Positions 20,491-62,686 are shown, counted from the first letter of the stretch. The stretch: DNA of 64,000 nucleotides from Minisyncoccota bacterium (GCA_041651055.1 JBAZJW010000004.1:2018-66017), one strand, 5' to 3'. Notes: generated from the sequence alone by a model not told the origin. A program made the numbers and translations.

Positions 20491-20505
20491 CCCAGGAGTC
20501 AAACT

Positions 20506-23250: not shown

Positions 23251-23948
23251 CAGACTTTGATTATCAGTGGAAATACTTATCCAACTCACCCTATTTAGAA
23301 CACAACTCAGATAGGGTGAAAGAACTCCTAGACCTAACAATGCTACCGCCTGAGTGGTTTAATGGTAAGTATTGCCTAGACGTTGGCTGTGGTTCGGGAC
23401 GCTACACATATGCTATGCAACAACTAGGTGCAAAGGTTATATCAATAGACAACAGCATCTATGCACTCCAGCTAACAAGTCAAATAAACAAACACGTCTT
23501 TCTACATGACATCACCAAAGCACCGTTTTTTATACGTGGTTGTGCATTAACATTCTGCTATGGTGTGATCCACCACACACCCAACCCTAGAAAAGCCTTC
23601 TCAAACCTAGCAAAGGGTGTACCTAGTGGAGGTTATTTATTTGTTATGGTATACCGTGACTCTCCCGTTCAAAAACGGTACGAAGGTTTCAGAAAACTAT
23701 TTAAATCCCTACCTGCTGTAATGAGGTTACCTTTTGTTTATATGATTACTCTAGTGTTCCGTTATAATTACATCCCACCATTTTATCATCCAGTTCATAC
23801 AGTTCATGGTTGGTGGGACGCATTAAGTCCGACATACAACTTCACATTCACCGAGGACGAAATAGTAACGTGGTTTAGAGAAGAAGGGTTTAGTAACTTA
23901 TACACTTCTACCCTACCTAACATATGTATGACAGGACTAAAACTATGA
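23247..23948 (+). CDS. class I SAM-dependent methyltransferase
   Basis: Motif I LDVGCGSGRYTYAM. Confidence 0.65.
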   Translation: MTDFDYQWKYLSNSPYLEHNSDRVKELLDLTMLPPEWFNGKYCLDVGCGSGRYTYAMQQLGAKVISIDNSIYALQLTSQINKHVFLHDITKAPFFIRGCALTFCYGVIHHTPNPRKAFSNLAKGVPSGGYLFVMVYRDSPVQKRYEGFRKLFKSLPAVMRLPFVYMITLVFRYNYIPPFYHPVHTVHGWWDALSPTYNFTFTEDEIVTWFREEGFSNLYTSTLPNICMTGLKL

Positions 23949-25494: not shown

Positions 25495-25684
25495 AGGCAT
25501 CCAAGGTGAGGTTGACTACTCTCGTCCAGCCATCGTGATTGACAAGGACGAAGTCTACCAAACCATACCAGGTACAACAGAACGTGACTACACTAAACCT
25601 AGCTACACTATAGAAGACAAACGTCCAGATACACGTAGACATCATCAACGTTACATAATCGACATGGAGGACCCGTTGGAATGA
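25436..25684 (+). CDS. small secreted/membrane protein (82 aa)
   Basis: AAGGAGGTG RBS. N-terminus KKVILLAWLLQIVIY is hydrophobic. Confidence 0.35.
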   Translation: MKKVILLAWLLQIVIYPNYKGIQGEVDYSRPAIVIDKDEVYQTIPGTTERDYTKPSYTIEDKRPDTRRHHQRYIIDMEDPLE

Positions 25685-26982
25685 ACATATTCACTATCAA
25701 CCTATCAGACATAACTATCCCACCAACTCGTCAACGTACTGACAAGGACGACAAATACATTGACCAGTTATCCGAATCCATCCGTATGATAGGCCAAATC
25801 AACCCTATTATACTTGACGAAACCAACACCCTCATAGCAGGTTGGTGTCGTATCAAGGCGTTTGAGTTGCTAGGACGCACCGAAATCTATGCACGTCGTT
25901 GGGAGGACTTGGACCAATATGAAAAAGAACTTATCGAGTTCGAAGAAAACGTTAGACGTAAAAATCTATCCTATAACGAACAGTTGCTCGCTGAACTTGC
26001 ACTCCATGAACGATTCCAGCAGTATCACGGCGTACAGAAGTCCCCATTTTACGGCCACGTTTCTAAAGGACGACCCAAATGGCGAGTGGAAGACATGGCT
26101 AACTTTATGGGATTCTCAATAGGTAAAATGAGTGAGCGTCTCAAGCTCGCACAAGAAATCCGCCGCAACCCTGAGATGGGTGACTTCAAGACCGAATCCC
26201 AAGCACGTCACGCTATGGAACGCAAACAAGCACAGGCTATACGTACGGTGTTAGCTGCTGTTAAGGTGAGTGAACAGAAGGAAACCACACCATCCAACGA
26301 ACCCAAACCATTATTTGAAACCTATCACCACGGTGACATCACCCTCATTAACGCAGACGCCAAACTCGTCATCCCTACCCTACCAGACGACTCTATAAGT
26401 TGCCTCATCACCGACCCGCCTTGGAACGTTCTCTTTGATGAGTCATTTGGTACAGACACCAAAATAGGACTGGAGTTAACTCATGAGACTCTCAGACTTC
26501 TATACCCAAAATTGCAGTCAGGATCATTATGTGTCATGTATTGTGCAACAAGACACCTTATCACAGGAAAAATTTATGAACTCGTTCAGTCTTGTGGTTA
26601 TGCTATCTACCCCACTATACATATATGGTACAAACCACACTCTGCAGGAAGTTCCATACCTTATCGTGAACTCAAGAACGACTACGAACCCGCGCTCTTA
26701 TTCTCAAAAGGACTCGGAAGAGATTTTCATAGTCCTATGTGGGCAGTTATTAGTGGTCTAGTAGAAGGCAAACGTTATCATACTGCACAGAAATGTACGG
26801 ACGTGCTGAAGCAACTCATTCAGAATTTCACGGTTGAAAATGAGTTAGTGATTGACCCGTTTATGGGTTCCGGACAGACGATGTTAGCCTGTCGTGCGTT
26901 GAAGCGTCGCGGATTGGGTATAGAAAAAGAACCTGACCATTATCATACTGCTATTTATCTAATGGAGGAACCTCATGTCTGA
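25681..26982 (+). CDS. ParB-like nuclease domain fused to beta-class DNA (N6-adenine/N4-cytosine) methyltransferase
   Basis: ParB-N block IPPTRQR...LSESIRMIGQINPIILDE. MTase motif IV ITDPPWNV, then motif I FMGSGQT near the C-terminus (beta-class order). Confidence 0.7.
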   Translation: MNIFTINLSDITIPPTRQRTDKDDKYIDQLSESIRMIGQINPIILDETNTLIAGWCRIKAFELLGRTEIYARRWEDLDQYEKELIEFEENVRRKNLSYNEQLLAELALHERFQQYHGVQKSPFYGHVSKGRPKWRVEDMANFMGFSIGKMSERLKLAQEIRRNPEMGDFKTESQARHAMERKQAQAIRTVLAAVKVSEQKETTPSNEPKPLFETYHHGDITLINADAKLVIPTLPDDSISCLITDPPWNVLFDESFGTDTKIGLELTHETLRLLYPKLQSGSLCVMYCATRHLITGKIYELVQSCGYAIYPTIHIWYKPHSAGSSIPYRELKNDYEPALLFSKGLGRDFHSPMWAVISGLVEGKRYHTAQKCTDVLKQLIQNFTVENELVIDPFMGSGQTMLACRALKRRGLGIEKEPDHYHTAIYLMEEPHV

Positions 26983-27169: not shown

Positions 27170-27353
27170 CACCCTACACGACCGCTTGATGGCCCTCACC
27201 ACACATCATGGTGAGTACACCCACTTGATTCGTAAAGCCATTCGCGAGTTCGTTACCAATGAGGAGGCCCGCCGTGGAATTGACAACACAACTAGACTTA
27301 CAATCCAAGTGCAGCAAACTAAAACTAGTCCTTCCAAAATCCCTAACCCATAA
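27135..27353 (+). CDS. ribbon-helix-helix (CopG/Arc-like) DNA-binding protein
   Basis: MKFIRAQITDTLHDRLMALTTHHGEYTHLIRKAIREFV shows a beta-alpha-alpha pattern. Its 3' end overlaps the polymerase start. Confidence 0.45.
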   Translation: MTMKFIRAQITDTLHDRLMALTTHHGEYTHLIRKAIREFVTNEEARRGIDNTTRLTIQVQQTKTSPSKIPNP

Positions 27354-29613
27354 ACGCCTAGCTATTGTTGGTGAAGCACTAGGCGCAGACGAGGAGGAAC
27401 AAGGTGATTACTTCGTTGGCAAGGCTGGGTTCTTACTTGATAAACTCCTTCGTGAGTGTGGTCTCATCCGTGATGCTATTCATATTACTAATGTTCTTAA
27501 AATACGTCCTCCGGATAACAAAGTACCCAGACTAGGTGAGTTAGGTCTAACCATAGATGACTTCGTCCCATATCTAAAGGAAGAACTCTCACTTGTCAAA
27601 CCTAACATTATCCTTGCATTAGGTGCCCCGGCCATGCAGGTTCTAACTGGCAAAGACGGTATAACCAAATGGCGCGGCTCGACGGTTCCTTGCACTTTAA
27701 TCCCAGGGAACATACCAGTTGTGATCACTCTTCACCCGTCGTATATACAGCGTGGTCAGTGGCACCTATATCCATATGTTAGGCATGACTTTGAAACCTT
27801 TGCAGATATGGGATTTGGGTTGCATAAACAAACCCAACCATTTGAAATGTTGATTGAGCCTACACTAACTCAAATTATGGACTACTTAAACGAAATATAC
27901 GAGACGTCCACTGAAACGTCCATAGACATAGAGACCGTTAACAAGACCCACATCACTTGTGTGGGGTTTACTAAGAATGAGAACTCGGCAATCTGCATAC
28001 CTTTTCGTTCGAAGGGTCTACGTAACCACTGGGCCGAGCATGAGCAACTACTTATACTTGAAGCGATGCGTCGTGTCTATCAGAAACCGGGCCTTGTCAA
28101 GATTGGTCAGAACTTCCTAGACTACGACGCCCATTACCTCTATCCGTTGTTAGGCTTCCCACGTGAACCCCTATTCGACACCCTCTATGCACATCAGTTA
28201 ATTCACGCCGACGCGCGTCATGACCTAGGGTTCATCATAAGTGTCTACACCGACATGCCCTACCATAAAGACGACGCCAAAGACTGGGAATCTAAAAAAC
28301 TCCCACACGATCAAGCCTTGTGGGAATACAACTGTCGTGATACAATAGGCACACACCGTGCTGCACTTAAACTAAGGAGCGACCTACATGAATTGGGACT
28401 CTACGGTTTTCTCACCGGCTACATCATGCCATTCAAACGCGCCCTATTTGAGATGGAGTGGAGAGGAATATACGTTGATCAAGAACTGCGTGGGAGAATG
28501 GCAAAAGACATTGAAGATAACCTTTTACCAGACGCATTGTGGTGCATCGAAGAACTCACAGGTAAAGCTATTAATCCAAACTCATCCAAGCAGGTTGGGG
28601 AGTACCTCAACGACGTCCTCCACATACCCGTTCCAAGGACAGACAAAGGCAACTACACAGTCGATGAGGATAAGTTAGAAGAACTCTTCGCGAGGTTTCC
28701 AAAGCATCGTCGTATCATGGAGATGTTTATATGCACCCGTAAGATGAAGGCTAAGGACTTGGGTACCTATCTCACTGCACCCTTATCAAGTGACGGTCGC
28801 CTACGCACTAGCTTTGGCATAGCTAAAACCGGTAGACTCACCTCTGGTACTAACCACCGTGGCGAGGGCACGAACCTCCAGAACCAGCCCAAGCGATTGC
28901 GCGTGGTTTATAAAGCCGACCCCGGTCGTAAGTTACTATGTCCTGACCTCGTAGGTGCTGAAGCCTTCGTAACTGTCTGGCAATCCGGGGCAAAGAAACT
29001 CAAAGCTGAGATGTTGAAAGGTAAAAAAATCCATGCTATCGTCGCCAACTGGATCACCGGCAAACCCATTAGCGAACTCCCACCCGAAACCTACCGCAAC
29101 ATAAAAGCCTGTGTGCATGGTAGCAACTATAAAATGGGCGTGAACAAATTCGCCAAGACCATAGGCTCAACCGTTGAAGAAGCCAAGCGTGTGCGTGAAC
29201 AATACTTTGCTGTGTTTCCTGAGTTGGCTGGGTATCATGCATGGGTAGAGAATGAAGTTGTCACCAAACGTAAACTCATCACGCCTTATGGACGGGTACG
29301 TATATTCACAGGCGACTTGAAAAAAGACGATATGTATTCTGCTTATTCACAAATTCCACAATCCACTATTGCGGACACAATAAATACAGGGATACTCGGT
29401 CTTTGGTTGGTGAAGCCAGACGATATATACTTACTGCTACAAGTACATGATGAAGTTGTAATAGAGCTACTTCCAGACAGAATTGAGTGGTTCAAACTGT
29501 ACATAGAAGCACATCTATCCAAACTACGCGAACTATGGATTGGAGATGATTATTTAGTTATTCCAGTGGACATAGGTAAGGCTAAGGACAGGTGGTACGG
29601 AGGTGAAAAGTAA
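27259..29613 (+). CDS. family A DNA polymerase with 3'-5' exonuclease domain and N-terminal family-4 UDG-like domain
   Basis: UDG-like GEALGADEEEQGDYFVGKAGFLLDKLL plus HPSY. Exo I IDIETV. Pol motif A LLCPDLVGAE, motif B RNIKACVHGSNYKMG, motif C LLQVHDEVV. Confidence 0.85.
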   Translation: MRRPAVELTTQLDLQSKCSKLKLVLPKSLTHKRLAIVGEALGADEEEQGDYFVGKAGFLLDKLLRECGLIRDAIHITNVLKIRPPDNKVPRLGELGLTIDDFVPYLKEELSLVKPNIILALGAPAMQVLTGKDGITKWRGSTVPCTLIPGNIPVVITLHPSYIQRGQWHLYPYVRHDFETFADMGFGLHKQTQPFEMLIEPTLTQIMDYLNEIYETSTETSIDIETVNKTHITCVGFTKNENSAICIPFRSKGLRNHWAEHEQLLILEAMRRVYQKPGLVKIGQNFLDYDAHYLYPLLGFPREPLFDTLYAHQLIHADARHDLGFIISVYTDMPYHKDDAKDWESKKLPHDQALWEYNCRDTIGTHRAALKLRSDLHELGLYGFLTGYIMPFKRALFEMEWRGIYVDQELRGRMAKDIEDNLLPDALWCIEELTGKAINPNSSKQVGEYLNDVLHIPVPRTDKGNYTVDEDKLEELFARFPKHRRIMEMFICTRKMKAKDLGTYLTAPLSSDGRLRTSFGIAKTGRLTSGTNHRGEGTNLQNQPKRLRVVYKADPGRKLLCPDLVGAEAFVTVWQSGAKKLKAEMLKGKKIHAIVANWITGKPISELPPETYRNIKACVHGSNYKMGVNKFAKTIGSTVEEAKRVREQYFAVFPELAGYHAWVENEVVTKRKLITPYGRVRIFTGDLKKDDMYSAYSQIPQSTIADTINTGILGLWLVKPDDIYLLLQVHDEVVIELLPDRIEWFKLYIEAHLSKLRELWIGDDYLVIPVDIGKAKDRWYGGEK

Positions 29614-39135: not shown

Positions 39136-39429
39136 CTATGGATACACCCTACCTATGTTAGTCAACACCACCGTCCCTGCTGAGTTAATAGTCACACGCC
39201 AATAACTAGCCGGGTTTCCGTTATCTCTCAACACAACTCCCTTAGTATTATCCGTTATAACCACATCACTCCCATGCTCAACATAATTATAAAACTTCCC
39301 ATGACCTCGATAACCCTCTAAGTTATCCATTCGTGTGCTTATCAACTCAAATATCCTATTAGCCTCAAGCACCCAGTCATAAGGATCGTCACCTCTAATT
39401 TTATACATTGTCCCGGCTTGCTCGGTCAT
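39136..39429 (-). CDS. hypothetical structural protein (97 aa)
   Basis: Tightly packed in the operon. Confidence 0.45.
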   Translation of the reverse strand: MTEQAGTMYKIRGDDPYDWVLEANRIFELISTRMDNLEGYRGHGKFYNYVEHGSDVVITDNTKGVVLRDNGNPASYWRVTINSAGTVVLTNIGRVYP

Positions 39430-41300
39430 CGCACTTCAATCTCCCTTAACTCGTGGCTCGTAGGCCCGGCATTAGTATTAGTCGCCTTAACATATACAAA
39501 CCTACCCTTAATCTTAGACTCAAAACTCCTCCAGTTATACGCATCAGCATGTGTGAGACTCGTCAACGTCACACTATACCTAGACACCCCATCCACAAAA
39601 AACTCCAACGTCCAACTCCCATCAGCATCGACCCTATATTCTTTTAACCAAGACGTCTCAGTCACTCGTTTAGCTTTCACACCATATGCTACTTCTGGAC
39701 TCTTAACCAGGTCTTCTGGAGCAGATGTGAAGTCATAATTCTTAGTCACTACCTCTACCGAAATACTTTCATCTGTTGTACCTACATCACCACTCAACAA
39801 CTGATACACCGTTGAATTACCACTACTTGTACTAAACTGGTAATCCGTTGACCCATACAACACCCCATTAGCATCATCACCGAAAATATCGTCTAGTCTA
39901 GTTGTTATGAGTCTCCACTGTTTCTCAACAGGGTTGAATTCTAGCAAGTTATTAGCCGACGTCCCGGTGGTGTCTTTCATAGGTGCAATCAAATAATACC
40001 TACCATTATAACAGGTAGCTCTACACTTACTCGGGGCTTGGTCTCTATCGACTACCGAATACAACGACGTTGGACTCTGCCAAAACGCCTTCTCGATGGG
40101 TGTACTCACACACGTACTCTTAACCCCATCAAACATATACACCCCATCTCTAGCTAAGTAATAAATCCCCCCACCTACGCTAGCTACCGACCACCTTGCA
40201 TACGTCCCAACTGTAGCTTTGGTCTCATCAGTTGTAAACGTATCAGGATATTCAGTGTAACCACTCAACCCAACCACACTATGCTGGGTAACAATATACA
40301 ACTTCCCTTCTGCTATGGCTAGGTTTTGTACCACCGTACCAGCCTGGCCCGCTTCGACATAATACGTCGACGGCCAGCTGTCTGGTTGGTCTGCAATACA
40401 ATTATAAACTCTATTTCTATAATTCGTATCACCCGTTAAAAACAACACATTTTTCAACGCCATAACCACATCGCACGTAGGTGGTATCCCAGCGTCTGTT
40501 ACAGCAACTTGAGTGAGGTTACTATCAGGTATCGTGTCGACATAATATGTCACTACATTATCAGGTATAATGGCTATTAAGTATCTAGTCCCACCATCGG
40601 CTATAGTTCTATACAACCTTCTAGCTGTGATCCTACTATCATTAGATACTGTCAAGTTAGCAACCATCACAGATTGATCGTCTGTCACAGTTATACTCGC
40701 ACACGCAGGTGATGGCTCAGACTCAGCGCCTGTAGCGCCATCATAAAACGTATACACATACGAATACGCACCAGCTGACAACTGCCCGGTTGCCGAGTCA
40801 ATACTAACCAGCGGTGCACTCTCAGGAGCGTCGATACCCCAGGTTTTAGTAGACGTTCCGTTGTCAGCTATCATCGTAACGCCGTCGGTCATGTAGACAT
40901 AGGTATACGTACTTATCTCAGGCTTAACCGCAGCATACGAAATATGTCTAGCACTTGTCAAACTAGATGATATAGACGTGGTAACATTAGTAAGTGAATT
41001 CCACCTAGACGTGCCAGTTGATCCACTATGAAAAATCAACTGTTTATCTATACCCTCAACGTTGATCTGAAATAAATTACTAATCACTCCTACCGTTAAT
41101 TGACTATTAAAATACGGCGTATGCACCGCGTGTCTCTCACGACACCTAACCGCTCCAGTATTATCGAAGTTGACATTCTTACCTACATACACGCTATCAT
41201 CGTGCATCAACTCATGCCGAGCTTTGTTTTGCCAACCTTGTTTAAAATCACCAATTAAAAGGCTCATTTTCTGTTGAATATCCTCCGCACTGAATCGCAC
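39426..41300 (-). CDS. tail protein (624 aa)
   Basis: Long beta-rich ORF in the tail gene block. Confidence 0.5.
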   Translation of the reverse strand: MRFSAEDIQQKMSLLIGDFKQGWQNKARHELMHDDSVYVGKNVNFDNTGAVRCRERHAVHTPYFNSQLTVGVISNLFQINVEGIDKQLIFHSGSTGTSRWNSLTNVTTSISSSLTSARHISYAAVKPEISTYTYVYMTDGVTMIADNGTSTKTWGIDAPESAPLVSIDSATGQLSAGAYSYVYTFYDGATGAESEPSPACASITVTDDQSVMVANLTVSNDSRITARRLYRTIADGGTRYLIAIIPDNVVTYYVDTIPDSNLTQVAVTDAGIPPTCDVVMALKNVLFLTGDTNYRNRVYNCIADQPDSWPSTYYVEAGQAGTVVQNLAIAEGKLYIVTQHSVVGLSGYTEYPDTFTTDETKATVGTYARWSVASVGGGIYYLARDGVYMFDGVKSTCVSTPIEKAFWQSPTSLYSVVDRDQAPSKCRATCYNGRYYLIAPMKDTTGTSANNLLEFNPVEKQWRLITTRLDDIFGDDANGVLYGSTDYQFSTSSGNSTVYQLLSGDVGTTDESISVEVVTKNYDFTSAPEDLVKSPEVAYGVKAKRVTETSWLKEYRVDADGSWTLEFFVDGVSRYSVTLTSLTHADAYNWRSFESKIKGRFVYVKATNTNAGPTSHELREIEVR

Positions 41301-45523: not shown

Positions 45524-46425
45524 TAAATACCCTCCACATCATGACTAACCCTGAAGTCATCGTTCCATAAGGTACCACCGGTTACGTCTCTCACACGTCT
45601 TGGCATAGACGTCGTACCCATGTCCTCTATAATTGCATCACGAAGCAAATTAGCATAGTCCGTTTTGGCGTCACGTGCTAGGCCAATAAACGCAGGGTTT
45701 TGTGTGATAGTAAATACTAACCTATAACAATCCCACAATGCTCCTGCTTCAATTAACTCAGGTCTAAACACCGGCTCGTCGGTGTCTGCACTAAGATCAG
45801 CTACGTACTTCTTATAATGTACTGTTAGCACATAATCCTGATCTGGCACGGGCCATACTTCAAATGTCACCAACCCATCACCTTTGGTCTTACTAGTGAT
45901 CCTATAATGTGTAGGCGGCCCCGTAGACGTCCTCTCAGGATCGAGTGCGTTAAGATAATTCTCACTAACTTCTCCCAACCTACTTTGATATACCAAACTC
46001 ACAATCTCCCCAACATCAGCCACTGTAGGTGTATAATATGTCCTAAATATGCCATAGTTAGTTGACGCTGCCGTTGACCCGCCATATGCAGTTAGCAATA
46101 CAATATTCGTTGCGTCGGTTATTGTTGTGATTTCATATGGTTGGGACTCACTACCAAATCTAATAAAATCCCCAACTGCGAAGTTAGTAAACGTCGTCCC
46201 CGACCCAACCACTGCAGTACTGTCATGCGTCACAGTGACAGTGTCTACAGTCGACGTATTAGCATAATCACCCTCTAGCTTAACAGTCGTTCTATCCTTT
46301 AGAAACTCCCAATCCTCAGCACCTAGAATTTGTTTATACCTGATGTTAATTCGCTGCTTGACTACCGGCATTGACAACATCGGGACGAATTCTTTGAGGT
46401 TGAGTGCCATTAATCTTAGGTTCAT
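45523..46425 (-). CDS. hypothetical head-tail or tail protein (300 aa)
   Basis: Start may be an internal Met (46380 or 46371), which would reduce the overlap with the upstream gene. Confidence 0.45.
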   Translation of the reverse strand: MNLRLMALNLKEFVPMLSMPVVKQRINIRYKQILGAEDWEFLKDRTTVKLEGDYANTSTVDTVTVTHDSTAVVGSGTTFTNFAVGDFIRFGSESQPYEITTITDATNIVLLTAYGGSTAASTNYGIFRTYYTPTVADVGEIVSLVYQSRLGEVSENYLNALDPERTSTGPPTHYRITSKTKGDGLVTFEVWPVPDQDYVLTVHYKKYVADLSADTDEPVFRPELIEAGALWDCYRLVFTITQNPAFIGLARDAKTDYANLLRDAIIEDMGTTSMPRRVRDVTGGTLWNDDFRVSHDVEGI

Positions 46426-48025
46426 TTTTAGGCTCCATTTGACGTTTTACTTGATACCCACGAAGTAGAATCTGTTGTATTTGTCCTAGAAACTCTCTCG
46501 CTTCTTTGTAGCTAGGATTAAACTCTAGGCTTTTTTTAGCGTAGGCTTCGGCTGCCAGTAACCCACCCAATACTAACTGTGCTTTAGCTGCGTTTAACCA
46601 TAATTCCCAGAGTCTAATAGCACCATCATAACGATTAATACCTTCCATTGTGTAGTGCAATGCATGAATTGAGTCATTAGCAACTTGGTACATGCCACCT
46701 AGGTTGACCAATGAAAATCCATCAGTAGGCGAGTGTTTAATCGCTTTGTGGTAGTAGTCTACGCTAGAGGTTTTCTTCGCGCGAATGAAGTAATATTCAG
46801 TTAGTGTCTTATGAATGAGGTCTTTGTAGGTTGATAGTATTACAATAATTAATCCAGCTATTATGTACCATTCGGGTGTATACGTAGCATCACCTCGTAA
46901 GCATGCAAACAACACAAACCAGATCATTACGTTAGTGGGTTCTGTATGTAAGTTGTGCATAAATATACCAGATATTAATGCTGCTATTAGTGCACCTTTT
47001 AAAAGTAAGTCTGCATCTGATAGTAGTGCCATTATGATTAAACTCAAATATGCCACCAAACCAGGTATGCCTACATCACAGGCCATTTGAATGTAGTCAT
47101 TATGACACTTCTGCGGGTAGGGACAAGAGTAGTTACTTGGATCAAGAAACGCGCCGTTGGATTTGTTGTTGAGATCACGCTGTATGTAAGGTATTCTGCA
47201 CTTCAAGCAATCCAACCCAAGCCCGAATCCTGGGGTGAGTTTAATTTGTTCCCAAGCTATTCGCCAGTAGTTGAGTCTCTCCTTAAGTGTACCTTTGCTG
47301 TAGTCACTAATTAAATGCCTCCAGCCTGTTGAGAGTAACATCATTCCAATACCAATGCTCATTATAACAAGCAACGTATACACATCATCTGATTGAGTTG
47401 TTACCAACACAAACAACCCACCCACCACCATGCCTAGGTAACTACCTTTACATTTAGTAATCCAAACTGTATAACCTATTAATGCGCTGACTAGATACCA
47501 CCACCTAGACTCAGCACCCAGTAACAATGACAAAAAGAAACTCACCGCCATGAGGTTCCCAAGCATGTTAGTATTACCAATAAACCCTAGTGGAAATAGA
47601 TACTGAGGTAGTGCGTTGGATAAGTTGCGTAGTGGCTCTCGCTTAAAGACTCCCTGTAAGACAGCATACAAGCAATTAGCCACAATGCCTATCATAACAA
47701 TACCAAGACCAGTTAGATTAATACCATTAAACGCTGTCACTATGAACATAACCATCCCGGTCCAGACGCTTAACTCACTAACCCCAACATAGTGATATGG
47801 AGAAACTAACGTAGCCACGATCCACCACCCTACCATGCCTAACGTTATCCATATCACCATATCAGGTAAATAAATACTGGTACCTTCTACCCACCACTGG
47901 AGGAGGTATGCCACGCCAAGCAAAGGCATAAGTGCGCGTCTCAAGACCTCATAGGGTGCTCTAAATTGAGGCCCACTCATTAAGACGGTTAAAATGGCGA
48001 GTAGTATATAAGGTACCAGTTCCAT
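46346..48025 (-). CDS. Wzy_C-domain (O-antigen ligase / polymerase / O-oligosaccharyltransferase-like) polytopic membrane protein with C-terminal TPR-like repeats
   Basis: About 10-12 hydrophobic helices. Loop motif CHNDYIQMACDVGIPGL matches the Wzy_C H-N-x-Y-L...G-x-x-G signature. C-terminus has TPR-like helices (NPSYKEAREFLGQI). Confidence 0.55.
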   Translation of the reverse strand: MELVPYILLAILTVLMSGPQFRAPYEVLRRALMPLLGVAYLLQWWVEGTSIYLPDMVIWITLGMVGWWIVATLVSPYHYVGVSELSVWTGMVMFIVTAFNGINLTGLGIVMIGIVANCLYAVLQGVFKREPLRNLSNALPQYLFPLGFIGNTNMLGNLMAVSFFLSLLLGAESRWWYLVSALIGYTVWITKCKGSYLGMVVGGLFVLVTTQSDDVYTLLVIMSIGIGMMLLSTGWRHLISDYSKGTLKERLNYWRIAWEQIKLTPGFGLGLDCLKCRIPYIQRDLNNKSNGAFLDPSNYSCPYPQKCHNDYIQMACDVGIPGLVAYLSLIIMALLSDADLLLKGALIAALISGIFMHNLHTEPTNVMIWFVLFACLRGDATYTPEWYIIAGLIIVILSTYKDLIHKTLTEYYFIRAKKTSSVDYYHKAIKHSPTDGFSLVNLGGMYQVANDSIHALHYTMEGINRYDGAIRLWELWLNAAKAQLVLGGLLAAEAYAKKSLEFNPSYKEAREFLGQIQQILLRGYQVKRQMEPKNEPKINGTQPQRIRPDVVNAGSQAAN

Positions 48026-56122: not shown

Positions 56123-57886
56123 CTATGAGTTAAGCCAATGGTCGTCGTAGGTGTCGTCTTTACCATAGGCCAAAATACGTGCAAATTCTAAATCACGGAA
56201 TTTAGTCGTGGTTGAGATAGCTGGCTTACGTGCTTGGATTATAGACGCGTCGTCGGGTTCTTGGTTGACGTGACGATACATCGTGTATAAGCCTATCAAC
56301 GCGCTCATGACCCTGTCGTCATACCCGTTGCCGATTGCAGAACCACCACCGGACTCGTCCTGGGTGAAGGTTATCAATTCACGAATCAGGTCTTGACTAT
56401 GTACAATGATTGTCATGTCTGAGATACAATGTGTGCCGTAACTAATTAACGCTTTCTTGGAGCGCAAGTTAGTCTCCCAGCCTAGCTTGTTAGTAAAGCT
56501 CCCATCGTAGGTGTCGATACGTTCCTGACGATAGATGTTCCAGTAGTGGTTCTGCAATTCCTGCAACGTGACGCGGCCATACGACTCGACCTCAACCGAC
56601 GCTAAGGCTTCGTTGTAGAGTTTGCCAACCGAGGCTACGATCTCGGCTAGGTTAAAGGGGTCTACATAACCATGCCATTCAGCGACTTGTTCGGCTACCA
56701 ATGGTATAGGGAGTTTTTTCCAGACTTCGATACATGAAAAGTCACCTTTGGTTTTACCACTTCGGGGGTCGTATTGACCACCACCTGAGACGTCAATGCC
56801 CATTACGTAGATGCCTCGGTCTTCGGGAAGTTTCCAGATGCGTAGGTTACCGTTTTCGTCTGCTTTCAAACCGCGCTTGGAGATGTTGCCACGCCATTTG
56901 GGTTCACTGCATTTGAGAAACATCGTCCTGAGTTTACGTCTATCAAACAGCGGTACACCTGATACGATAAAGGCTTCTTCGTCGTTGCTAGGATATTCCT
57001 GCCGGAACAACTCCACATCGGCGCGCAGGTCGGCGATGGTAGTACGACGCCAGTAGAGTTGTTCTGGTGACAGGCTATATGTGGCCTTGAGTTCTTTTTC
57101 TTCGTCGTTGAGACTCTCCATGAAGGCAGTTCGCTCACGTCCTGTGTTGAACTGGCGCACATATTCTGGCAAGTCAAACCATGCTAGGAAGAACGGTATG
57201 AAGTTGCTACTCCCTTCTTTTGCTGCGAGCCACTCCTCGTGGAAGAAGTTGCCAACTCCTTTTGCTGTGGACTCGTAGAAGATGACACTGTTTAGGGTCT
57301 TAGGAACGGTGGGAATCAAAGCGGGAATGACATCTTCTGCTTTAGTCCATGAACCCAACTCGCTACAGTGAAGGTTATGGTAGCCCGCGCTTCTAGCTAC
57401 GTCTTTCTTGCCAGCCGTTAAAACGGTCAAGGATGACCGTAGTCCGGGATTAAGGTTACGGGTTTTAGGGTCGGGGTTTTCGAAGGTTAGTTCGCGTTTA
57501 GACCCGTAGCGAACCATTGGTTGTAACTCTTTGGGTAGGCAGTCGTAGTAGAGCTTACACATGTTGAAGATTTTCTCACCTGACTCCTTTTCATGTGCGA
57601 TTATAGCAGCGTCTGTGTTCTCGGACATGTGTGAGAGCCAGAAAATGGTGCCTTCGCAGTAAGTGGACATGCCCTCACGCCGGGCCTTGAGGATGATGAA
57701 CCTGAGTAACTTTCTGTTTTGACGTGCGGATTCTACTACCTTGTGAAATTTCTGCTGTGGGGACCAGAAGTTGAACGGGAGCAACTGTTGATTCTGGTCT
57801 TTGATTTTCAACAACTTAGCTGCATAATATTCAAAATCCCACGTGCAGCGTTTGAAGTCGAGGTTATTTAAGACGCTAGAAGTCAT
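56123..57886 (-). CDS. terminase large subunit
   Basis: About 587 aa. N-terminal ATPase region with KARREGMST P-loop-like block, then a nuclease-domain-sized C-terminus. Confidence 0.8.
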   Translation of the reverse strand: MTSSVLNNLDFKRCTWDFEYYAAKLLKIKDQNQQLLPFNFWSPQQKFHKVVESARQNRKLLRFIILKARREGMSTYCEGTIFWLSHMSENTDAAIIAHEKESGEKIFNMCKLYYDCLPKELQPMVRYGSKRELTFENPDPKTRNLNPGLRSSLTVLTAGKKDVARSAGYHNLHCSELGSWTKAEDVIPALIPTVPKTLNSVIFYESTAKGVGNFFHEEWLAAKEGSSNFIPFFLAWFDLPEYVRQFNTGRERTAFMESLNDEEKELKATYSLSPEQLYWRRTTIADLRADVELFRQEYPSNDEEAFIVSGVPLFDRRKLRTMFLKCSEPKWRGNISKRGLKADENGNLRIWKLPEDRGIYVMGIDVSGGGQYDPRSGKTKGDFSCIEVWKKLPIPLVAEQVAEWHGYVDPFNLAEIVASVGKLYNEALASVEVESYGRVTLQELQNHYWNIYRQERIDTYDGSFTNKLGWETNLRSKKALISYGTHCISDMTIIVHSQDLIRELITFTQDESGGGSAIGNGYDDRVMSALIGLYTMYRHVNQEPDDASIIQARKPAISTTTKFRDLEFARILAYGKDDTYDDHWLNS

Positions 57887-58062
57887 TTGGGTCTGTGGCC
57901 ACTCCTTATGGCATGTTTAGCGGGTTTGTTAACTTTAGATGCAAACTCACTAAGCTGCTTATGAGTCATGCTTAACACACCCCGGTTGCGCTTAAACAAC
58001 TTACTAGGCGCGTGTTTAGCGATTGCCATTAGTTTACGTTGCTTCTCACTTACTGCTGGCAT
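57883..58062 (-). CDS. small basic protein, DUF3008-like (59 aa)
   Basis: MPAVSEKQRKLMAIAKHAPSKLFKRNRGVLSMTHKQLSEFASKV. ATGA overlap with the terminase start. Overlaps the 3' end of the RlpA-like gene by 17 nt. Confidence 0.35.
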   Translation of the reverse strand: MPAVSEKQRKLMAIAKHAPSKLFKRNRGVLSMTHKQLSEFASKVNKPAKHAIRSGHRPK

Positions 58063-60730
58063 CTTTCACCGTTATGTGAGGCGGGTTTTTCTTGGCCTCT
58101 TTAATAATGTCGATTTTGATGTTAGCTACACCCTTTTTGGTTATGCCTAATTTGTCTGCTGCGGCCTTGGACAAGTCAAGCACCCTGTTAGGGTATTTAT
58201 ACGGGCCGCGGTCTGTGACTTCAACCACTACACTTTTATTAGTATGCTTATCCGTAACTTTGATCTTTGTGCCTAGCGGTAAGGTTCTATGTGCTGCGGT
58301 CATTTTGTTCATGTCAAAGGGTTTCTTAGGGTTACCTGCCATTGGTTTCCCGTGGAATTGCTTACCATACCATGAGGCTTTCGCACCTTGTGGGTGGGAG
58401 TCGTGGGTGGCAGACTCATCAAGTTTAGGTTTCTCGTCACGTTGAGCAAGTGCCTTGAGTGCTTGCGTGGTTGTGAGTGAGCCTTGTGCGATACGTTGGC
58501 CTTTGATGGTGATGGATTGTTTTAGGTCAGGGGAGAGGGGGAGGTACCAGACTTCTACTTGTTCACCACGTGCCTTTTCATACGCATCAACTAAATTACC
58601 ACGAGCGTCTCGCAACTGTTGATAAGTTGGTGCTGCATTTGGATCAGCAATAGTTGTTTTTATTTTAACTGGCCTAACCCCATACTCCCTCTCAGCCTCT
58701 CTAACCATGTACTCATCATAAACCTTCTCGAAAAACTTACCACCTACCAGGAAGTCCCCGGTTGCGCCGTCGCCGGATATAGCACGACCCGTGCCAGGCC
58801 AGTTCTCACTACGCATCTTTGCAACTAAAGCTGACGCGTCTTCTCTGTATCTTACAATGTCAGTTAACTCACCCATATCGTCGAATATTTTGTACCTGTC
58901 ATCAGCTTTTTCGTAATATGCACCTCCAGCACGATCTTCAAGTGAATATGACTCTGAATCCTTTGGTTTATTTTTAGACGCTGCTGTTGCAATTTTCTCC
59001 TGCTCCTCTACAATCCTAGCGACGTTCTTACCAGCGTTATCTTGCAACTGCTTCATATTCACATAACCCTGATCGAACGTTCTGCCATTAGGAGTCTCAA
59101 AGTGGAGAGTGTACTTACCAGTCTTTAAGTCCTTAGTCCAGTTGAAACTATTGACTAGCTTGTTGTATCTATCTGCTACGATTCTGCCGGTTGACCATGT
59201 TACTGAGTCCTTACCTTCTCGTACGGCTGTGTCGACCCACTCCTTTAATCCAAGTTTGGCCCATTTGAGGTCTTTGAAAGGGGCGGGTGGAATGTTACTA
59301 CGTTGTCCGAGATAACCCTGTGCATAGTTCACTAATGAATCTCTATCATATGCACCATTTATTTTTGCACCTTCTTCGTCTCTAAGTATGTAGTATTCCC
59401 TGTTGTTTAAATCTGGCCTACCAGGAATGTTAGGAGGTTCCTTAGAGATCGTCCAACCAGTAGGTAGTTCGTCTTTTCCAATAGGTGTTGCATACCCCTC
59501 CTCCATCGCCTTCTGGTGTAATGAACTCTGCGTCTCATCCAAGTGCTTAGCTAACTCACCATTAGGCAACTTTCTATCGTGACCACGTGTGAACATAAAC
59601 GCATTATCAGCTACGTTACCTGGCCAGTCATGTGGCTCCACGTAGCGTAGGCCACCTTCAGGAGTGAAGTGGAAGAGACGTTCTTGATAGGTTCCTGGGA
59701 TGTGACCGGGGAGGTTGAAGGAGGAGTAGTTTTCGGGGCCGTACTTACCACCAGCACTACGTTTCTCTAACTTTTCCATCGCATTTGCAACAGCCATTCT
59801 TCTATTTTGCAAACGCGTTATATCCGGTTGCCATATTTCGTATCGCTCTCGATCCGGTGCTTTTTTATACAACTCGTCGAGTTCGTTGGTTGTCCTAGTA
59901 GCTATTCGTTCCAATCTATCACGTGCAGCCTGCAACTTGGGATCAATCGGACCAAGCACACTCGGCTCCCCAGTCTCTTTTAGACTCTTACTCCTCACCA
60001 ACTGCAACATCTCATCCCTACTGACTCTCTGATCACCTAGAGATTTCAGTTTCTGAAGCAAGCCAGTGTAATTGAGTTCCTCCATGTTGATGAGGTTTTT
60101 GTCGGTTGCATACTTCAATGTGCTTAGCATCCCAGTAGCTTTAGGGTTGTCTGGGATGAAGAGTTTACCAATCTGGCCGGTTTCTAGGGCACGTTCGAGT
60201 GGGGAGTAGAACTTAGGACTGCTTGTTAAGCCTGTCTTTGCACCACCAGCACCCCCACCAAACGGTATCGTAGCTAAGTCAAAGTTAGCCATTCCTATAG
60301 ACGTGCGTAACGTCTCACTTGCTTCCTTGGGGTCCATCGCTTGGGTGTAGGTTAACTCTCTACCAGTTTCAGGGTCTTTGAACTTCCCACCAGCAGCTAC
60401 ATGCGCCCAAAGGTTATAGGCGTTGTTGATGCTACTAACTACTGCTCCTGGTAGTGCCAACGCAAACTTAATCGGCGCACCAACTATCGCACCCATAACT
60501 TCGCCTGTGGTGCGGAGCCAGTCTGGTTGAGGTGCAGGTTGAGTAGGCGATTCATAAGCCGGGGGTATGGAGACGAAGGGTTTGTCACCAAGGGGGAGTT
60601 GGTTGGTTTGGTCCCCAGCCCCGGCTTGTGGGTTAGCAACTACACCTTCTGGCGTAGCTGCCATTGCATCACGTTGGTCCTTCCACTTCCTAAATCTCTC
60701 AACCTCAATGTCCGTAGGCTCAGTTCGCAC
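58046..60730 (-). CDS. large protein with C-terminal RlpA-like double-psi beta-barrel (DPBB) lytic-transglycosylase-type domain (894 aa)
   Basis: C-terminus ASWYGKQFHGKPMAGNPKKPFDMNKMTAAHRTLPLGTKIKVTDKHTNKSVVVEVTDRGPYKYPNRVLDLSKAAADKLG is the canonical RlpA/DPBB_1 pattern. Confidence 0.65.
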   Translation of the reverse strand: MRTEPTDIEVERFRKWKDQRDAMAATPEGVVANPQAGAGDQTNQLPLGDKPFVSIPPAYESPTQPAPQPDWLRTTGEVMGAIVGAPIKFALALPGAVVSSINNAYNLWAHVAAGGKFKDPETGRELTYTQAMDPKEASETLRTSIGMANFDLATIPFGGGAGGAKTGLTSSPKFYSPLERALETGQIGKLFIPDNPKATGMLSTLKYATDKNLINMEELNYTGLLQKLKSLGDQRVSRDEMLQLVRSKSLKETGEPSVLGPIDPKLQAARDRLERIATRTTNELDELYKKAPDRERYEIWQPDITRLQNRRMAVANAMEKLEKRSAGGKYGPENYSSFNLPGHIPGTYQERLFHFTPEGGLRYVEPHDWPGNVADNAFMFTRGHDRKLPNGELAKHLDETQSSLHQKAMEEGYATPIGKDELPTGWTISKEPPNIPGRPDLNNREYYILRDEEGAKINGAYDRDSLVNYAQGYLGQRSNIPPAPFKDLKWAKLGLKEWVDTAVREGKDSVTWSTGRIVADRYNKLVNSFNWTKDLKTGKYTLHFETPNGRTFDQGYVNMKQLQDNAGKNVARIVEEQEKIATAASKNKPKDSESYSLEDRAGGAYYEKADDRYKIFDDMGELTDIVRYREDASALVAKMRSENWPGTGRAISGDGATGDFLVGGKFFEKVYDEYMVREAEREYGVRPVKIKTTIADPNAAPTYQQLRDARGNLVDAYEKARGEQVEVWYLPLSPDLKQSITIKGQRIAQGSLTTTQALKALAQRDEKPKLDESATHDSHPQGAKASWYGKQFHGKPMAGNPKKPFDMNKMTAAHRTLPLGTKIKVTDKHTNKSVVVEVTDRGPYKYPNRVLDLSKAAADKLGITKKGVANIKIDIIKEAKKNPPHITVKDASSK

Positions 60731-60993
60731 TATGCTTTAGTCCTTGTCATCTCGTAGAGTCCCGTTGCAGTGGCTCCAGTCATGAAACCCTGCACCAGAA
60801 ACAACACCACCGTTTGAGGACTCGTCCCGGTTGGAGTGATGTATAACGCTACTAAACTAAGTCCCATGCCGATGCCCACAGCAATCCAAGGCTTGGCTTT
60901 ACTAGAAACCTCCCACGTACCATAGATCATCCTAAGCACGATACTTAGCAACACCGAGATTCCTATTGATCCAATTTGGAGTTCCTCTAACAT
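60730..60993 (-). CDS. holin-like 3-TM membrane protein (87 aa)
   Basis: Three hydrophobic helices, short charged C-terminus, adjacent to the muralytic gene. Confidence 0.45.
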   Translation of the reverse strand: MLEELQIGSIGISVLLSIVLRMIYGTWEVSSKAKPWIAVGIGMGLSLVALYITPTGTSPQTVVLFLVQGFMTGATATGLYEMTRTKA

Positions 60994-62281: not shown

Positions 62282-62686
62282 TCACTTACACACCTGTGTA
62301 GCGTTCCCGAATTCAGGGGCATCGGGAGTAACAGTCACCCCGCAGTTGATCGTAACGGACTTTGGTGTGCTCCACCCGTAGGTCAGAGCCTTCGTCCCGT
62401 CGCTCCGTGTCACCTCGACAACAGCCCCAAGGCGATACGAAAACGTACCGTCTGCAAGGCCGGTAATAGTCAAGTTGGTGCATCCCGGGAGACATTGTTG
62501 AGCCAAGAGTGAACCGTTCTGCTCAACCACATAATACTTGAACACAGGACTCATCGAAGCAGGGAATACGCTCGACCTCGGCGTGGGGTCGTCAAGGGAT
62601 TTCGTCACCTGAATCGTGACATCATGGGCCTGTGCGAAGGTTGCGAAGGCCAGTACCAGAATCACCGTTGCGAATAGCTTTTTCAT
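62282..62686 (-). CDS. secreted beta-rich protein with signal peptide (134 aa)
   Basis: MKKLFATVILVLAFATFAQA-HD. Confidence 0.5.
   Translation of the reverse strand: MKKLFATVILVLAFATFAQAHDVTIQVTKSLDDPTPRSSVFPASMSPVFKYYVVEQNGSLLAQQCLPGCTNLTITGLADGTFSYRLGAVVEVTRSDGTKALTYGWSTPKSVTINCGVTVTPDAPEFGNATQVCK

What the first reader, a model, noticed from the sequence alone, without database searches (positions are those of the whole stretch)
58046..60730. 894-aa multi-domain protein ending in an RlpA-like DPBB lytic-transglycosylase domain, placed between the lysis cassette and terminase
The C-terminal 100 aa match the RlpA/DPBB_1 pattern residue for residue (ASWYG..FHG...TA.G..........AAH..LP.GT...VT......SVVV.V.DRGP.......LDLS.AA...LG). 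RlpA in Pseudomonas is a lytic transglycosylase.

The preceding roughly 790 aa have no obvious match and may carry another enzymatic or structural domain. The only muralytic candidate in the window is therefore a giant protein rather than a compact endolysin.

It may be a virion-associated (injection) peptidoglycan hydrolase that doubles as the lysis enzyme.
Basis: partly seen in the sequence, partly recalled or inferred. Interest (0 to 1): 0.55.

Follow-up and report, generated by a model that had tools for sequence, protein, structure and literature searches.

The report
Phage polyvalent protein with RlpA-like lysin
A 894-residue phage protein joins a large module of unknown function, otherwise found in the giant "polyvalent" proteins that phages and plasmids are thought to deliver with their DNA, to a cell-wall-cutting RlpA-like domain that is the only recognisable wall-degrading domain in this genome.

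Summary
An 894-aa ORF (58046..60730, minus strand, GTG start overlapping the stop of a holin-like gene) ends in a DPBB_1 domain (aa 783-873, E 2e-21). It keeps the DRGP aspartate (D840).

The "unmatched" N-terminal part is not an orphan. Residues ~172-750 form a module with 678 relatives in an exhaustive search. It has no Pfam model and no solved-structure match. In other proteins it sits beside ART-PolyVal, LPD38, ddrB-ParB, RadC and LPD23, the hallmark domains of polyvalent proteins. It also occurs in the internal-virion-protein block of a Pelagibacter podophage.

No other muralytic domain was found in the ~65 kb circular podophage genome. My best reading is a small polyvalent-type protein that is packaged and ejected, and whose tethered DPBB domain cuts peptidoglycan at entry. 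This is inferred, not shown.

A role as the holin-released endolysin, alone or in addition, stays open. Holin adjacency and the lack of another lysin favour it. Size and family context argue against it.

The protein is a new domain combination within known kinds, of moderate interest.

The parts
58046..60730 (-). Whole gene, 894 aa, GTG start
   Evidence: ORF list. Identical to NCBI MFA5132953.1. There is one full-length homologue, P0002, at 48% identity with a conserved start.
60659..60730 (-). N-terminal leader, aa 1-24 (MRTEPTDIEVERF...), predicted helix 7-24. Possible packaging or processing signal (inferred).
   Evidence: In the relative L001 the motif MRTxPTQDE(I/L)xR heads both P0002 and the adjacent LPD23/HExxH protein. 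No other ORF in L001 or in the window has it. AF2 gives helix 7-24 with pLDDT about 84.
60431..60499 (-). Weakly hydrophobic Gly/Ala-rich segment, aa 78-100, inside a low-confidence, probably disordered region (aa 27-175)
   Evidence: Kyte-Doolittle 19-residue mean up to 1.7. A hydrophobic segment lies at the same position (aa 79-98) in P0002 although the sequence has diverged. pLDDT is below 50.
58481..60217 (-). Polyvalent-protein-associated module, aa 172-750, function unknown, no Pfam model. Sub-parts: helical sub-module (FYSPLERALE..., aa 172-260), coiled coil (264-327), alpha/beta core (330-590), and a C sub-module (650-750) with the GG....FYD-type motif.
   Evidence: 678 relatives at E <= 1e-3, most matching aa 360-580. 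Family consensus. Co-occurrence with ART-PolyVal, LPD38, ddrB-ParB, RadC and LPD23. BFVD fold matches at E down to 1e-11 to phage proteins carrying LT_GEWL, ART-PolyVal and LPD domains. No Pfam match and no PDB match. Translation checked.
58961..59743 (-). Conserved core of the module, aa 330-590. Invariant or near-invariant polar residues: H367, R382, D385, R386, E399, Q401, S402, H405, Q406, Y413, K486, R521, Y522.
   Evidence: Alignments A2, A3 and A4. AF2 model of aa 320-705 has mean pLDDT 76, with the core mostly above 85.
58781..58960 (-). Lineage-specific insertion, aa 591-650, between the core and the C sub-module
   Evidence: In most relatives the GLDLKVGGEGM..FYD motif follows the core directly. 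Here and in P0002 about 60 aa intervene. pLDDT is low.
58385..58480 (-). Polar linker, aa 751-782, probably flexible
   Evidence: pLDDT is below 50 from about aa 765 to 815 in the full-length model, where the shallow alignment of this region may also lower confidence. The sequence is low in complexity and poorly conserved between the window protein and P0002.
58112..58384 (-). DPBB_1 (RlpA-like double-psi beta-barrel) domain, aa 783-873, predicted lytic transglycosylase
   Evidence: Pfam E 2.1e-21. PDB 4avr E 3.4e-17 and 8kea E 5.6e-8. 64 phage records carry related DPBB genes. Translation checked.
58211..58213 (-). Codon of D840 in the DRGP motif, the predicted catalytic aspartate
   Evidence: Translation EVTDRGP. 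It aligns with the D of NDRGP(F) in PA4485 and of NDRGA(F) in A-1(L) gp15. An active-site Asp is predicted for RlpA (V. cholerae D145A is inactive; PMC8820737). The mapping of that residue onto DRGP is from memory.
60730..60993 (-). Upstream 87-aa holin-like membrane protein. Its stop overlaps the GTG start of the 894-aa gene.
   Evidence: PHROG holin families at E 1.5e-8 and 3.6e-6; Pfam Phage_holin_5_2 at E 1.9e-4, below cut-off. Two to three TM-like segments. TAGTG overlap.
57883..58062 (-). Conserved 59-aa basic protein between the gene and the terminase, overlapping the gene's end by 17 nt
   Evidence: 66% identical to the 63-aa ORF at the same position in L001. Only a weak PHROG hit of unknown function.
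56123..57886 (-). Large terminase subunit (context)
   Evidence: phrog_2, E 7.7e-24. 75% identical to the L001 orthologue.

Best explanation
The gene encodes a small phage 'polyvalent' protein. It has a short conserved N-terminal helix and a disordered region with one weakly hydrophobic stretch. A ~580-aa module of unknown, possibly enzymatic, function follows; this module recurs in giant polyvalent proteins of phages and plasmids. A polar linker, probably flexible, then leads to a C-terminal RlpA-like DPBB domain.

The most likely mechanism, inferred by analogy, has three steps. The protein is made late, together with the structural genes. It is packaged into the podovirus particle and leaves it with the DNA. 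Its tethered DPBB domain then cleaves glycan strands of the host peptidoglycan locally to open the wall for genome entry, while the large module carries out a separate, still unknown task in the newly infected cell.

Shown here: the architecture, the family relationships, and the absence of any other recognisable lysin. Inferred: packaging, ejection, catalysis, and timing.
For: - Architecture: DPBB_1 at aa 783-873 with the DRGP Asp retained, behind a low-confidence linker.
- The N-terminal module has 678 relatives. Many lie inside proteins of 2,000-7,000 aa.
- In proteins scanned with Pfam the module sits between ART-PolyVal and LPD38 (P0051) and between ddrB-ParB and RadC (P0057). ART-PolyVal occurs in 5 and LPD38 in 3 of 37 mid-size members, with no other family present except a single DUF7178 match.
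- The module lies in a 5,000-aa 'LPD23 domain-containing protein' of a P. aeruginosa plasmid.
- A phage contig encodes it beside ddrB-ParB and LPD38 genes.
- BFVD fold matches (E 1e-11 to 4e-4) are to large phage proteins named LT_GEWL-, ART-PolyVal- and LPD-containing. The pairing of this module with a peptidoglycan-cutting domain has therefore arisen at least twice, with unrelated folds.
- In Pelagibacter podophage HTVC028P the module is in gp34, inside the internal-virion-protein block between 'internal protein A' and 'internal virion protein'. In Pseudoalteromonas phage PH1 it is in the 1,299-aa protein next to TerL.
- In the closest relative the upstream neighbour is an LPD23 protein with a HExxH motif. 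It shares the N-terminal peptide MRTxPTQDE(I/L)xR with the DPBB protein.
- Literature: polyvalent proteins of phages are predicted to be packaged, and their lysozyme-type domains to breach peptidoglycan at invasion (PMC5512222). A virion-borne DPBB domain (A-1(L) hub gp15) lyses cells in vitro (PMC10966104). Virion-associated lysins have a median length of 954 aa against 250 aa for endolysins (PMC8310338).
Against: - There is no direct evidence that the protein is in virions. No domain in it is a known structural or portal-binding domain such as MuF.
- The gene does not lie in the main block of tail and internal-virion genes (33-52 kb), where an internal-virion-protein homologue already exists (39426..41300, phrog_511).
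- It lies directly after a holin-like gene with overlapping stop and start codons, the classic position of an endolysin.
- No other lysin is recognisable in the genome, so some protein must do the end-of-cycle lysis.
- P. aeruginosa RlpA is reported to prefer glycan strands stripped of peptides, and E. coli RlpA is inactive. Activity on intact wall is therefore not guaranteed.
- Packaging of polyvalent proteins is itself largely a prediction.
Confidence: 0.5

Rival explanations
1. It is the phage's endolysin. In this reading a cytoplasmic, unusually large lysin is released through the holes made by the upstream holin-like protein at the end of the cycle. It would act either as the only role of the DPBB domain or in addition to an entry role (dual use).
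For: - It lies directly downstream of a holin-like gene, and the overlapping TAG/GTG suggests translational coupling.
- It carries the only muralytic domain found in the whole ~65 kb genome.
- Several small membrane or coiled-coil proteins lie just upstream, as in lysis cassettes.
- From general knowledge, not tested here: large-hole holins let very large proteins pass, and PRD1 P15 and phi6 P5 are virion proteins that also cause lysis.
Against: - At 894 aa it is far above the endolysin median of 250 aa (PMC8310338).
- About 580 aa belong to a module typical of polyvalent proteins, which has no evident use in lysis.
- In the closest relative the homologue follows an LPD23/HExxH gene rather than a holin-like gene.
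- That relative has a 127-aa ORF in its small-gene cluster whose SxxR, H...D and HxH spacing looked by eye like a LAS-type peptidase. No HMM supports this.
- The holin assignment itself is weak: PHROG only, and below the Pfam cut-off.
- An unrecognisable endolysin among the many ORFs of unknown function cannot be excluded.
Confidence: 0.3
2. The DPBB domain is not catalytic here. It only binds glycan strands, as E. coli RlpA seems to do, and anchors the large module to the cell wall or to another polysaccharide.
For: [quoted passage not shown]
- From general knowledge: the DPBB fold also includes non-enzymatic expansin-like proteins.
- The genome shows other signs of dealing with surface glycans: beta-helix proteins and a Wzy_C membrane protein.
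Against: - The DRGP aspartate and the other conserved positions of the Pfam profile are retained, with 76 bits over the full profile.
- The closest solved and tested phage relative of the domain, A-1(L) gp15, lyses cells, and mutations of conserved residues reduce its activity (PMC10966104).
- The domain is 60-70% identical between the two diverged homologues, while the linker before it is not conserved.
Confidence: 0.1
3. It is an intracellular or periplasmic effector that is not part of the virion and is not the lysin. For example, the weakly hydrophobic segment at aa 78-100 could anchor it in the membrane, where it would remodel the wall during infection or block superinfection.
For: - A weakly hydrophobic Gly/Ala-rich segment is conserved in position in both homologues.
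- Many small RlpA-like genes in known phages sit among structural or early genes without an assigned role.
Against: - The hydrophobic segment is marginal (Kyte-Doolittle about 1.7, and it contains Lys and Pro). It lies 78 residues from the N-terminus and is not preceded by a signal-like region.
- The family context points to DNA-co-delivered polyvalent proteins.
Confidence: 0.1

Closest known systems
Polyvalent proteins of phages and conjugative elements (Iyer, Burroughs, Anand, de Souza, Aravind 2017; PMC5512222)
   Same: The ~580-aa N-terminal module is found in the same polypeptides as ART-PolyVal, LPD38, ddrB-ParB, RadC and LPD23. The gene is in a phage with a portal-terminase system. A wall-degrading domain is attached, as described for the lysozyme, SpoIID-like and DD-peptidase domains of polyvalent proteins.
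   Different: It is much smaller, with two recognisable globular units rather than up to 15. No metallopeptidase domain was found in the protein or in the window. The wall-cutting domain is a DPBB, which that paper does not mention (0 occurrences of 'DPBB' or 'RlpA'). The large module has no Pfam model, and I could not tell whether it equals one of the numbered LPDs that never entered Pfam.
RlpA of Pseudomonas aeruginosa and Vibrio cholerae (septal-ring lytic transglycosylase)
   Same: The catalytic-type DPBB_1 domain is shared, including the DRGP aspartate.
   Different: There is no lipoprotein signal and no SPOR domain. The gene is phage-encoded, and the domain lies at the C-terminus of a large unrelated protein. 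It is a relative of the domain, not an orthologue.
Baseplate hub gp15 of Anabaena myophage A-1(L) (PDB 8KEA; PMC10966104)
   Same: It is a large phage protein of 899 aa that carries a DPBB domain (matched at E 5.6e-8). That domain is in the virion and lyses host cells in vitro.
   Different: In gp15 the DPBB domain is inserted in a myovirus hub barrel, next to lysozyme-like and peptidase domains. Here it is C-terminal to a polyvalent-type module in a podovirus, and no hub or other structural domain was detected.
Internal virion (ejection) proteins with a lytic transglycosylase domain, such as T7 gp16 (general knowledge, not tested here)
   Same: Both are large podovirus proteins with a glycan-cutting domain at one end. 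A relative of the N-terminal module lies in the gp14-gp16-like block of Pelagibacter phage HTVC028P.
   Different: T7 gp16 carries an N-terminal lysozyme-fold (SLT) domain and forms the ejection channel. No sequence or fold similarity to it was found here, and the gene sits next to the terminase rather than in the tail and core gene block.
Stand-alone RlpA-like genes of phages (cyanopodoviruses S-CBP1 and S-SRP01, Sinorhizobium phiM-type phages, Psychrobacter phage D'Alembert)
   Same: They have the same DPBB_1 domain at 41-52% identity. Some lie near capsid or terminase genes.
   Different: Those examined are small single-domain proteins of about 100-120 aa. None of the 64 matching phage records covers more than 14% of this protein.

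Membership tests
DPBB_1 (PF03330), RlpA-like lytic transglycosylase domain | Sequence match to the family profile above the curated threshold, over the whole domain | tested here: met
   76.4 bits against a cut-off of 28.8, E 2.1e-21, profile positions 4-83 of 83. PDB 4avr matches at E 3.4e-17.
DPBB_1 (PF03330), RlpA-like lytic transglycosylase domain | Conserved active-site aspartate (DRGP motif) | tested here: met
   D840 aligns with the Asp of NDRGP in PA4485 and of NDRGA in A-1(L) gp15. That this is the residue mutated in RlpA (P. aeruginosa D157, V. cholerae D145) is from memory and was not aligned here.
DPBB_1 (PF03330), RlpA-like lytic transglycosylase domain | Lytic transglycosylase activity (1,6-anhydroMurNAc products) | not testable with these tools
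   This needs a biochemical assay. E. coli RlpA is a family member without detectable activity.
RlpA proper (septal-ring rare lipoprotein A) | N-terminal lipoprotein signal peptide with lipobox cysteine | tested here: not met
   The N-terminus MRTEPTDIEVERF... is charged. The only hydrophobic stretch is aa 78-100, and there is no lipobox.
RlpA proper (septal-ring rare lipoprotein A) | C-terminal SPOR domain that binds denuded glycans | tested here: not met
   Pfam finds only DPBB_1. The protein ends 21 residues after the domain.
Polyvalent proteins (Iyer et al. 2017) | Contains a domain that recurs in recognised polyvalent proteins | tested here: met
   The module at aa 172-750 occurs beside ART-PolyVal and LPD38 (P0051), beside ddrB-ParB and RadC (P0057), and in an LPD23 protein of plasmid p382. 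BFVD matches agree.
Polyvalent proteins (Iyer et al. 2017) | Two or more domains of disparate biochemical activity in one polypeptide | tested here: inconclusive
   There are two globular units, but the activity of the large module is unknown. Its conserved polar residues suggest an enzyme without proving one.
Polyvalent proteins (Iyer et al. 2017) | Processing metallopeptidase (MPTase) in the protein or nearby | tested here: not met
   Neither Pfam nor tblastn finds one in the window. The relative L001 has an adjacent LPD23 protein with a HEIQH motif. This feature is frequent in the class but not obligatory.
Polyvalent proteins (Iyer et al. 2017) | Packaged in the capsid and delivered with the DNA | not testable with these tools
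   This needs virion proteomics. Only context supports it.
Virion-associated lysin | Muralytic domain fused to a recognised virion structural domain | tested here: inconclusive
   No known structural domain was detected. The module occurs in the internal-virion-protein block of HTVC028P. The length of 894 aa fits the median of 954 aa for this class.
Canonical endolysin | Gene adjacent to the holin gene in a lysis cassette | tested here: met
   It lies directly downstream of the holin-like 87-aa gene with overlapping stop and start. The holin call rests on PHROG hits only.
Canonical endolysin | Compact protein made of an enzymatic domain with or without a wall-binding domain | tested here: not met
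   The protein has 894 aa, of which about 780 are unrelated to lysis domains. The endolysin median is 250 aa.

The most novel reading that the evidence does not exclude
One protein may do three jobs. It would be carried in the particle and ejected. It would open the wall at entry with its DPBB domain and deliver a new enzyme into the cell. That enzyme would be the ~580-aa module with the invariant R..D-R...E-x-Q-S-(D-W)-H-Q constellation, which has no Pfam model and no solved-structure match. Newly made copies would later serve as the phage's only endolysin, released by the upstream holin. If the module proves to be an enzyme, it would define a new and widespread family of phage and plasmid effectors (678 cluster representatives at 50% identity).
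Probability: 0.12. Interest if true: 0.65.

Novelty: new variant of a known kind. Interest (0 to 1): 0.4.

Why it matters
First, it shows that the "unmatched" 790 aa belong to a large family that no curated library describes. The family runs through phage and plasmid polyvalent proteins, so it is a clear target for structural and biochemical work.

Second, it adds the RlpA-like DPBB fold to the list of wall-breaching domains attached to such proteins. Together with an LT_GEWL-bearing relative, this suggests that the pairing of this module with a glycan-cutting domain arose more than once.

Third, a podophage genome with no compact endolysin poses a testable question: can a polyvalent-type protein also be the lysis enzyme?

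The practical value is modest. The protein is already annotated from its DPBB domain, and every functional statement here is an inference.

Tried and rejected
- Word-indexed homologue searches with the full protein and with aa 1-780 returned only the protein itself and one homologue. The exhaustive HMMER search was needed to find the family.
- Pfam scans found nothing. I scanned the N-terminal part in four pieces at E up to 5 and ten close relatives.
- A profile of 122 family members found nothing among PDB sequences.
- Foldseek of the AF2 core model against the PDB gave no hit below E 0.009, with TM-scores of about 0.1. The gelsolin and carboxyltransferase rows there are noise.
- I considered that the D385...E399-x-Q401 hairpin followed by a helix could be a PD-(D/E)xK-like nuclease core. 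Nothing computed supports this, so it is not claimed.
- I suspected that a 127-aa ORF in the relative (L001 8014-8397) was a LAS/M15-type endolysin. Pfam, PHROG and PDB searches gave nothing, and the window has no homologue.
- The small proteins upstream (134, 110, 106 and 81 aa) gave no lysin-like hit in Pfam or PHROGs; the 134- and 106-aa proteins also gave none against PDB sequences.
- No lipobox ORF, and so no o-spanin candidate, exists between 57.8 and 64 kb.
- Promoter and terminator scans of 55.5-64 kb were at chance level.
- Exact look-ups of two window proteins failed, probably because gene callers chose other start codons.
- I could not walk along the rest of the relative's contig, because only window proteins and certain hits may be looked up.
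Full report
**1. The observation.**

The window carries an open reading frame at 58046..60730 on the minus strand: 894 codons with a GTG start. The start is the first possible one in the frame. An AAGGA lies about 11 nt upstream, and the start shares one base with the TAG stop of the upstream gene. It also aligns with the start of the only full-length homologue.

Pfam DPBB_1 matches residues 783-873 over nearly the whole profile, with E 2.1e-21 and 76 bits against a cut-off of 28.8. The same stretch matches the solved DPBB protein PA4485 (4avr, E 3.4e-17). It also matches residues 292-372 of the baseplate hub of Anabaena phage A-1(L) (8kea, E 5.6e-8).

The aspartate of the DRGP motif is present as D840 and aligns with the Asp in both solved proteins.

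**2. The genome around it.**

The window is almost all of a circular phage genome of about 65 kb. A Logan contig of 65,442 bp carries the same protein, and its genes continue from the window's end into the window's beginning. The identical protein is deposited as MFA5132953.1, 'septal ring lytic transglycosylase RlpA family protein', in a MAG labelled Candidatus Paceibacterota.

The minus-strand block is late and structural:
- beta-helix proteins
- a set of small membrane or coiled-coil proteins
- an 87-aa holin-like protein (PHROG holin families at E 1.5e-8 and 3.6e-6; Pfam Phage_holin_5_2 only below threshold)
- the 894-aa gene and a conserved 59-aa gene
- TerL, a P22-type portal, an SU10-type capsid protein and an SU10-type adaptor
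- a homologue of an internal virion protein

Promoter-like and terminator-like sites around the gene are no more frequent than in shuffled sequence.

**3. Is it the only muralytic candidate?**

I scanned the window's ORFs of at least 90 aa (leaving out those nested inside larger ORFs) against Pfam and PHROGs. I also read the precomputed Pfam hits for the stretch beyond the window's end and for the 18-33 kb block. No lysozyme, amidase, peptidase, SLT or other wall-degrading family appears apart from this DPBB domain.

The small proteins next to the holin-like gene give no lysin-like hit in Pfam or PHROGs, and the two I searched against PDB sequences (134 and 106 aa) give none there either. No lipobox ORF lies in that region. 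An unrecognisable lysin cannot be excluded.

**4. The N-terminal 780 residues.**

Word-indexed searches found only the protein itself and one homologue: P0002, 935 aa, 48% identical, from contigs of about 61 kb. The exhaustive HMMER search found 678 cluster representatives at E <= 1e-3 and 29 at E <= 1e-10. Most match residues ~360-580. Smaller sets also match 160-260 and 640-750.

Alignments define one module running from 'FYSxLE...' (aa 172) to about aa 750. It comprises a helical part, a coiled coil, an alpha/beta core and a C-terminal part with a GGEGM..FYD-type motif. In this protein and in P0002 an insertion of about 60 aa separates the core from the C-terminal part.

Invariant or nearly invariant residues are H367, R382, D385, R386, E399, Q401, S402, H405, Q406, Y413, K486, R521 and Y522. 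All of them are kept in the window protein. This pattern is what one expects of an enzyme, but no activity can be assigned.

The module has no Pfam model. Neither the window protein, nor ten close relatives, nor any of the 120 listed profile hits carries a Pfam hit there.

An AF2 model of aa 320-705 built on 122 sequences has a mean pLDDT of 76, with the core mostly above 85. It has no significant Foldseek match in the PDB, and the family profile finds no PDB sequence.

**5. What family is it?**

The module keeps company with the signature domains of polyvalent proteins:
- P0051 (1,653 aa) reads ART-PolyVal, then the module, then LPD38.
- P0057 (3,502 aa) reads ddrB-ParB, then the module, then RadC.
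- Among 37 mid-size members, the only Pfam families found at E <= 1e-4 are ART-PolyVal (5 members), LPD38 (3) and DUF7178 (1).
- A P. aeruginosa plasmid has the module inside a 5,000-aa 'LPD23 domain-containing protein'.
- One phage contig encodes it as a separate gene next to ddrB-ParB and LPD38 genes, and that contig has its own XhlA plus Amidase_2 lysis genes.
- BFVD fold matches (E 1e-11 to 4e-4) are to large proteins of uncultured phages annotated as LT_GEWL-, ART-PolyVal-, LPD- or GP88-containing.

In cultured phages the module occurs in Pelagibacter podophage HTVC028P gp34. That gene lies between 'internal protein A' and 'internal virion protein', which is the block of ejected core proteins in T7-like phages. 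It also occurs in the 1,299-aa protein next to TerL in Pseudoalteromonas phage PH1.

None of the other 149 listed representatives has a DPBB domain. The fusion seen here is therefore confined to this small clade.

**6. The closest relative.**

In the P0002 phage the gene sits upstream of the terminase, as it does here: after it come a 194-aa ORF with no counterpart in the window, the orthologue of the 59-aa ORF, and TerL. Its upstream neighbour, however, is a 285-aa protein with LPD23 (E 9.7e-9) and a HEIQH motif.

That neighbour and P0002 begin with nearly the same peptide: MRTAPTQDEIAR and MRTIPTQDELER. The window protein begins MRTEPTDIEVER. No other ORF in either locus begins this way.

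The full-length AF2 model puts a confident helix at residues 7-24, followed by about 150 low-confidence residues. I read the shared leader as a possible packaging or processing signal. This is an inference from two loci only.

**7. Mechanism.**

Iyer et al. argue that phage polyvalent proteins are packaged and enter the host with the DNA. They also argue that the lysozyme-type domains of these proteins help to breach the peptidoglycan (PMC5512222). That paper does not list a DPBB or RlpA-like domain.

A DPBB domain is known to work from within a virion. The 'endoglucanase' domain of the A-1(L) hub lyses EDTA-treated Anabaena cells, and mutations of conserved residues lower its activity (PMC10966104). 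Virion-associated lysins have a median length of 954 aa, against 250 aa for endolysins (PMC8310338).

The most likely reading is therefore a small polyvalent-type protein that is packaged and ejected. Its DPBB domain, tethered by a low-confidence linker, would cut glycan strands at the entry site. Its large module would act on something else in the cell. Architecture and family links are shown. Packaging, ejection and catalysis are inferred.

**8. The rival that cannot be dismissed.**

The gene follows a holin-like gene with overlapping stop and start codons, and the genome shows no other lysin. A role as the endolysin, alone or in addition to entry, therefore remains open. From general knowledge, PRD1 P15 and phi6 P5 are precedents for virion proteins that also cause lysis.

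Several points argue against a pure endolysin:
- the size of the protein
- the polyvalent-type module
- the different upstream neighbour in the relative
- the weakness of the holin call

A non-catalytic, binding-only DPBB domain is less likely, because the DRGP Asp and the whole profile are conserved. E. coli RlpA shows that it is possible (PMC8820737).

**9. Membership.**

The domain is a member of DPBB_1. The protein is not an RlpA orthologue, because it has no lipoprotein signal and no SPOR domain.

It qualifies as polyvalent-type through its shared module. It is minimal for that class, and no processing peptidase was found in the window.

**10. Verdict.**

The finding is a new domain combination (polyvalent-type module plus DPBB) within known kinds. 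It also exposes a large family that no curated library models. Interest is moderate at 0.4. It would rise if the module proves to be an enzyme, or if the protein proves to be both entry lysin and sole endolysin.

Noticed in passing
L001 9138-9995 and 10001-12808; window 60659-60730 (-): In the relative, two adjacent and otherwise unrelated proteins begin with almost the same 12 residues: the LPD23/HEIQH protein with MRTAPTQDEIAR and the DPBB protein P0002 with MRTIPTQDELER. The window protein begins MRTEPTDIEVER. This may be a shared packaging or processing leader.
   Followed up: partly
window 46346-48025 (-): A 559-aa protein with at least seven TM-like segments and a Wzy_C (O-antigen ligase/polymerase) domain (E 3.7e-14, above the Pfam cut-off) sits inside the structural gene block, next to the SU10-adaptor-like gene. 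This is an odd place for a polytopic membrane enzyme.
   Followed up: partly
window 19029-23948 (+): A cluster encodes an Asn_synthase-like protein, two radical SAM/SPASM proteins, an NAD-dependent epimerase/dehydratase and a methyltransferase (precomputed Pfam). It may be a nucleotide, DNA or glycan modification pathway.
   Followed up: no
window 25681-26982 (+) and 27259-29613 (+): There is a ParB_N plus N6_N4 methyltransferase fusion, and a family A DNA polymerase with an N-terminal UDG-like domain.
   Followed up: no
whole window; L004, L005: The record is deposited as part of a Candidatus Paceibacterota MAG, but the sequence is a complete circular podophage genome of about 65 kb with SU10-type capsid and adaptor proteins and a P22-type portal. 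The taxonomic label probably reflects binning, and the host is unknown.
   Followed up: partly
L001 8014-8397 (+): A 127-aa ORF in the relative's small-gene cluster has SxxR, H...D and HxH spacing that looked by eye like a LAS/M15-type peptidase. Pfam, PHROG and PDB searches found nothing, and the window has no homologue.
   Followed up: yes
window 57883-58062 (-): A 59-aa basic protein (MPAVSEKQRKLMAIAKH...) is conserved at 66% identity in the relative, between the DPBB gene and TerL. It overlaps the end of the 894-aa gene by 17 nt. Its function is unknown.
   Followed up: partly
window 62282-62686 (-): A 134-aa protein carries a clear N-terminal signal peptide (MKKLFATVILVLAFATFAQA/HD) just upstream of the small-gene cluster. 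It has no family or PDB match.
   Followed up: partly
window 60431-60499 (-): A weakly hydrophobic Gly/Ala-rich stretch (aa 78-100) is conserved in position, though not in sequence, in both homologues. It could be a membrane-interacting or SAR-like segment.
   Followed up: partly
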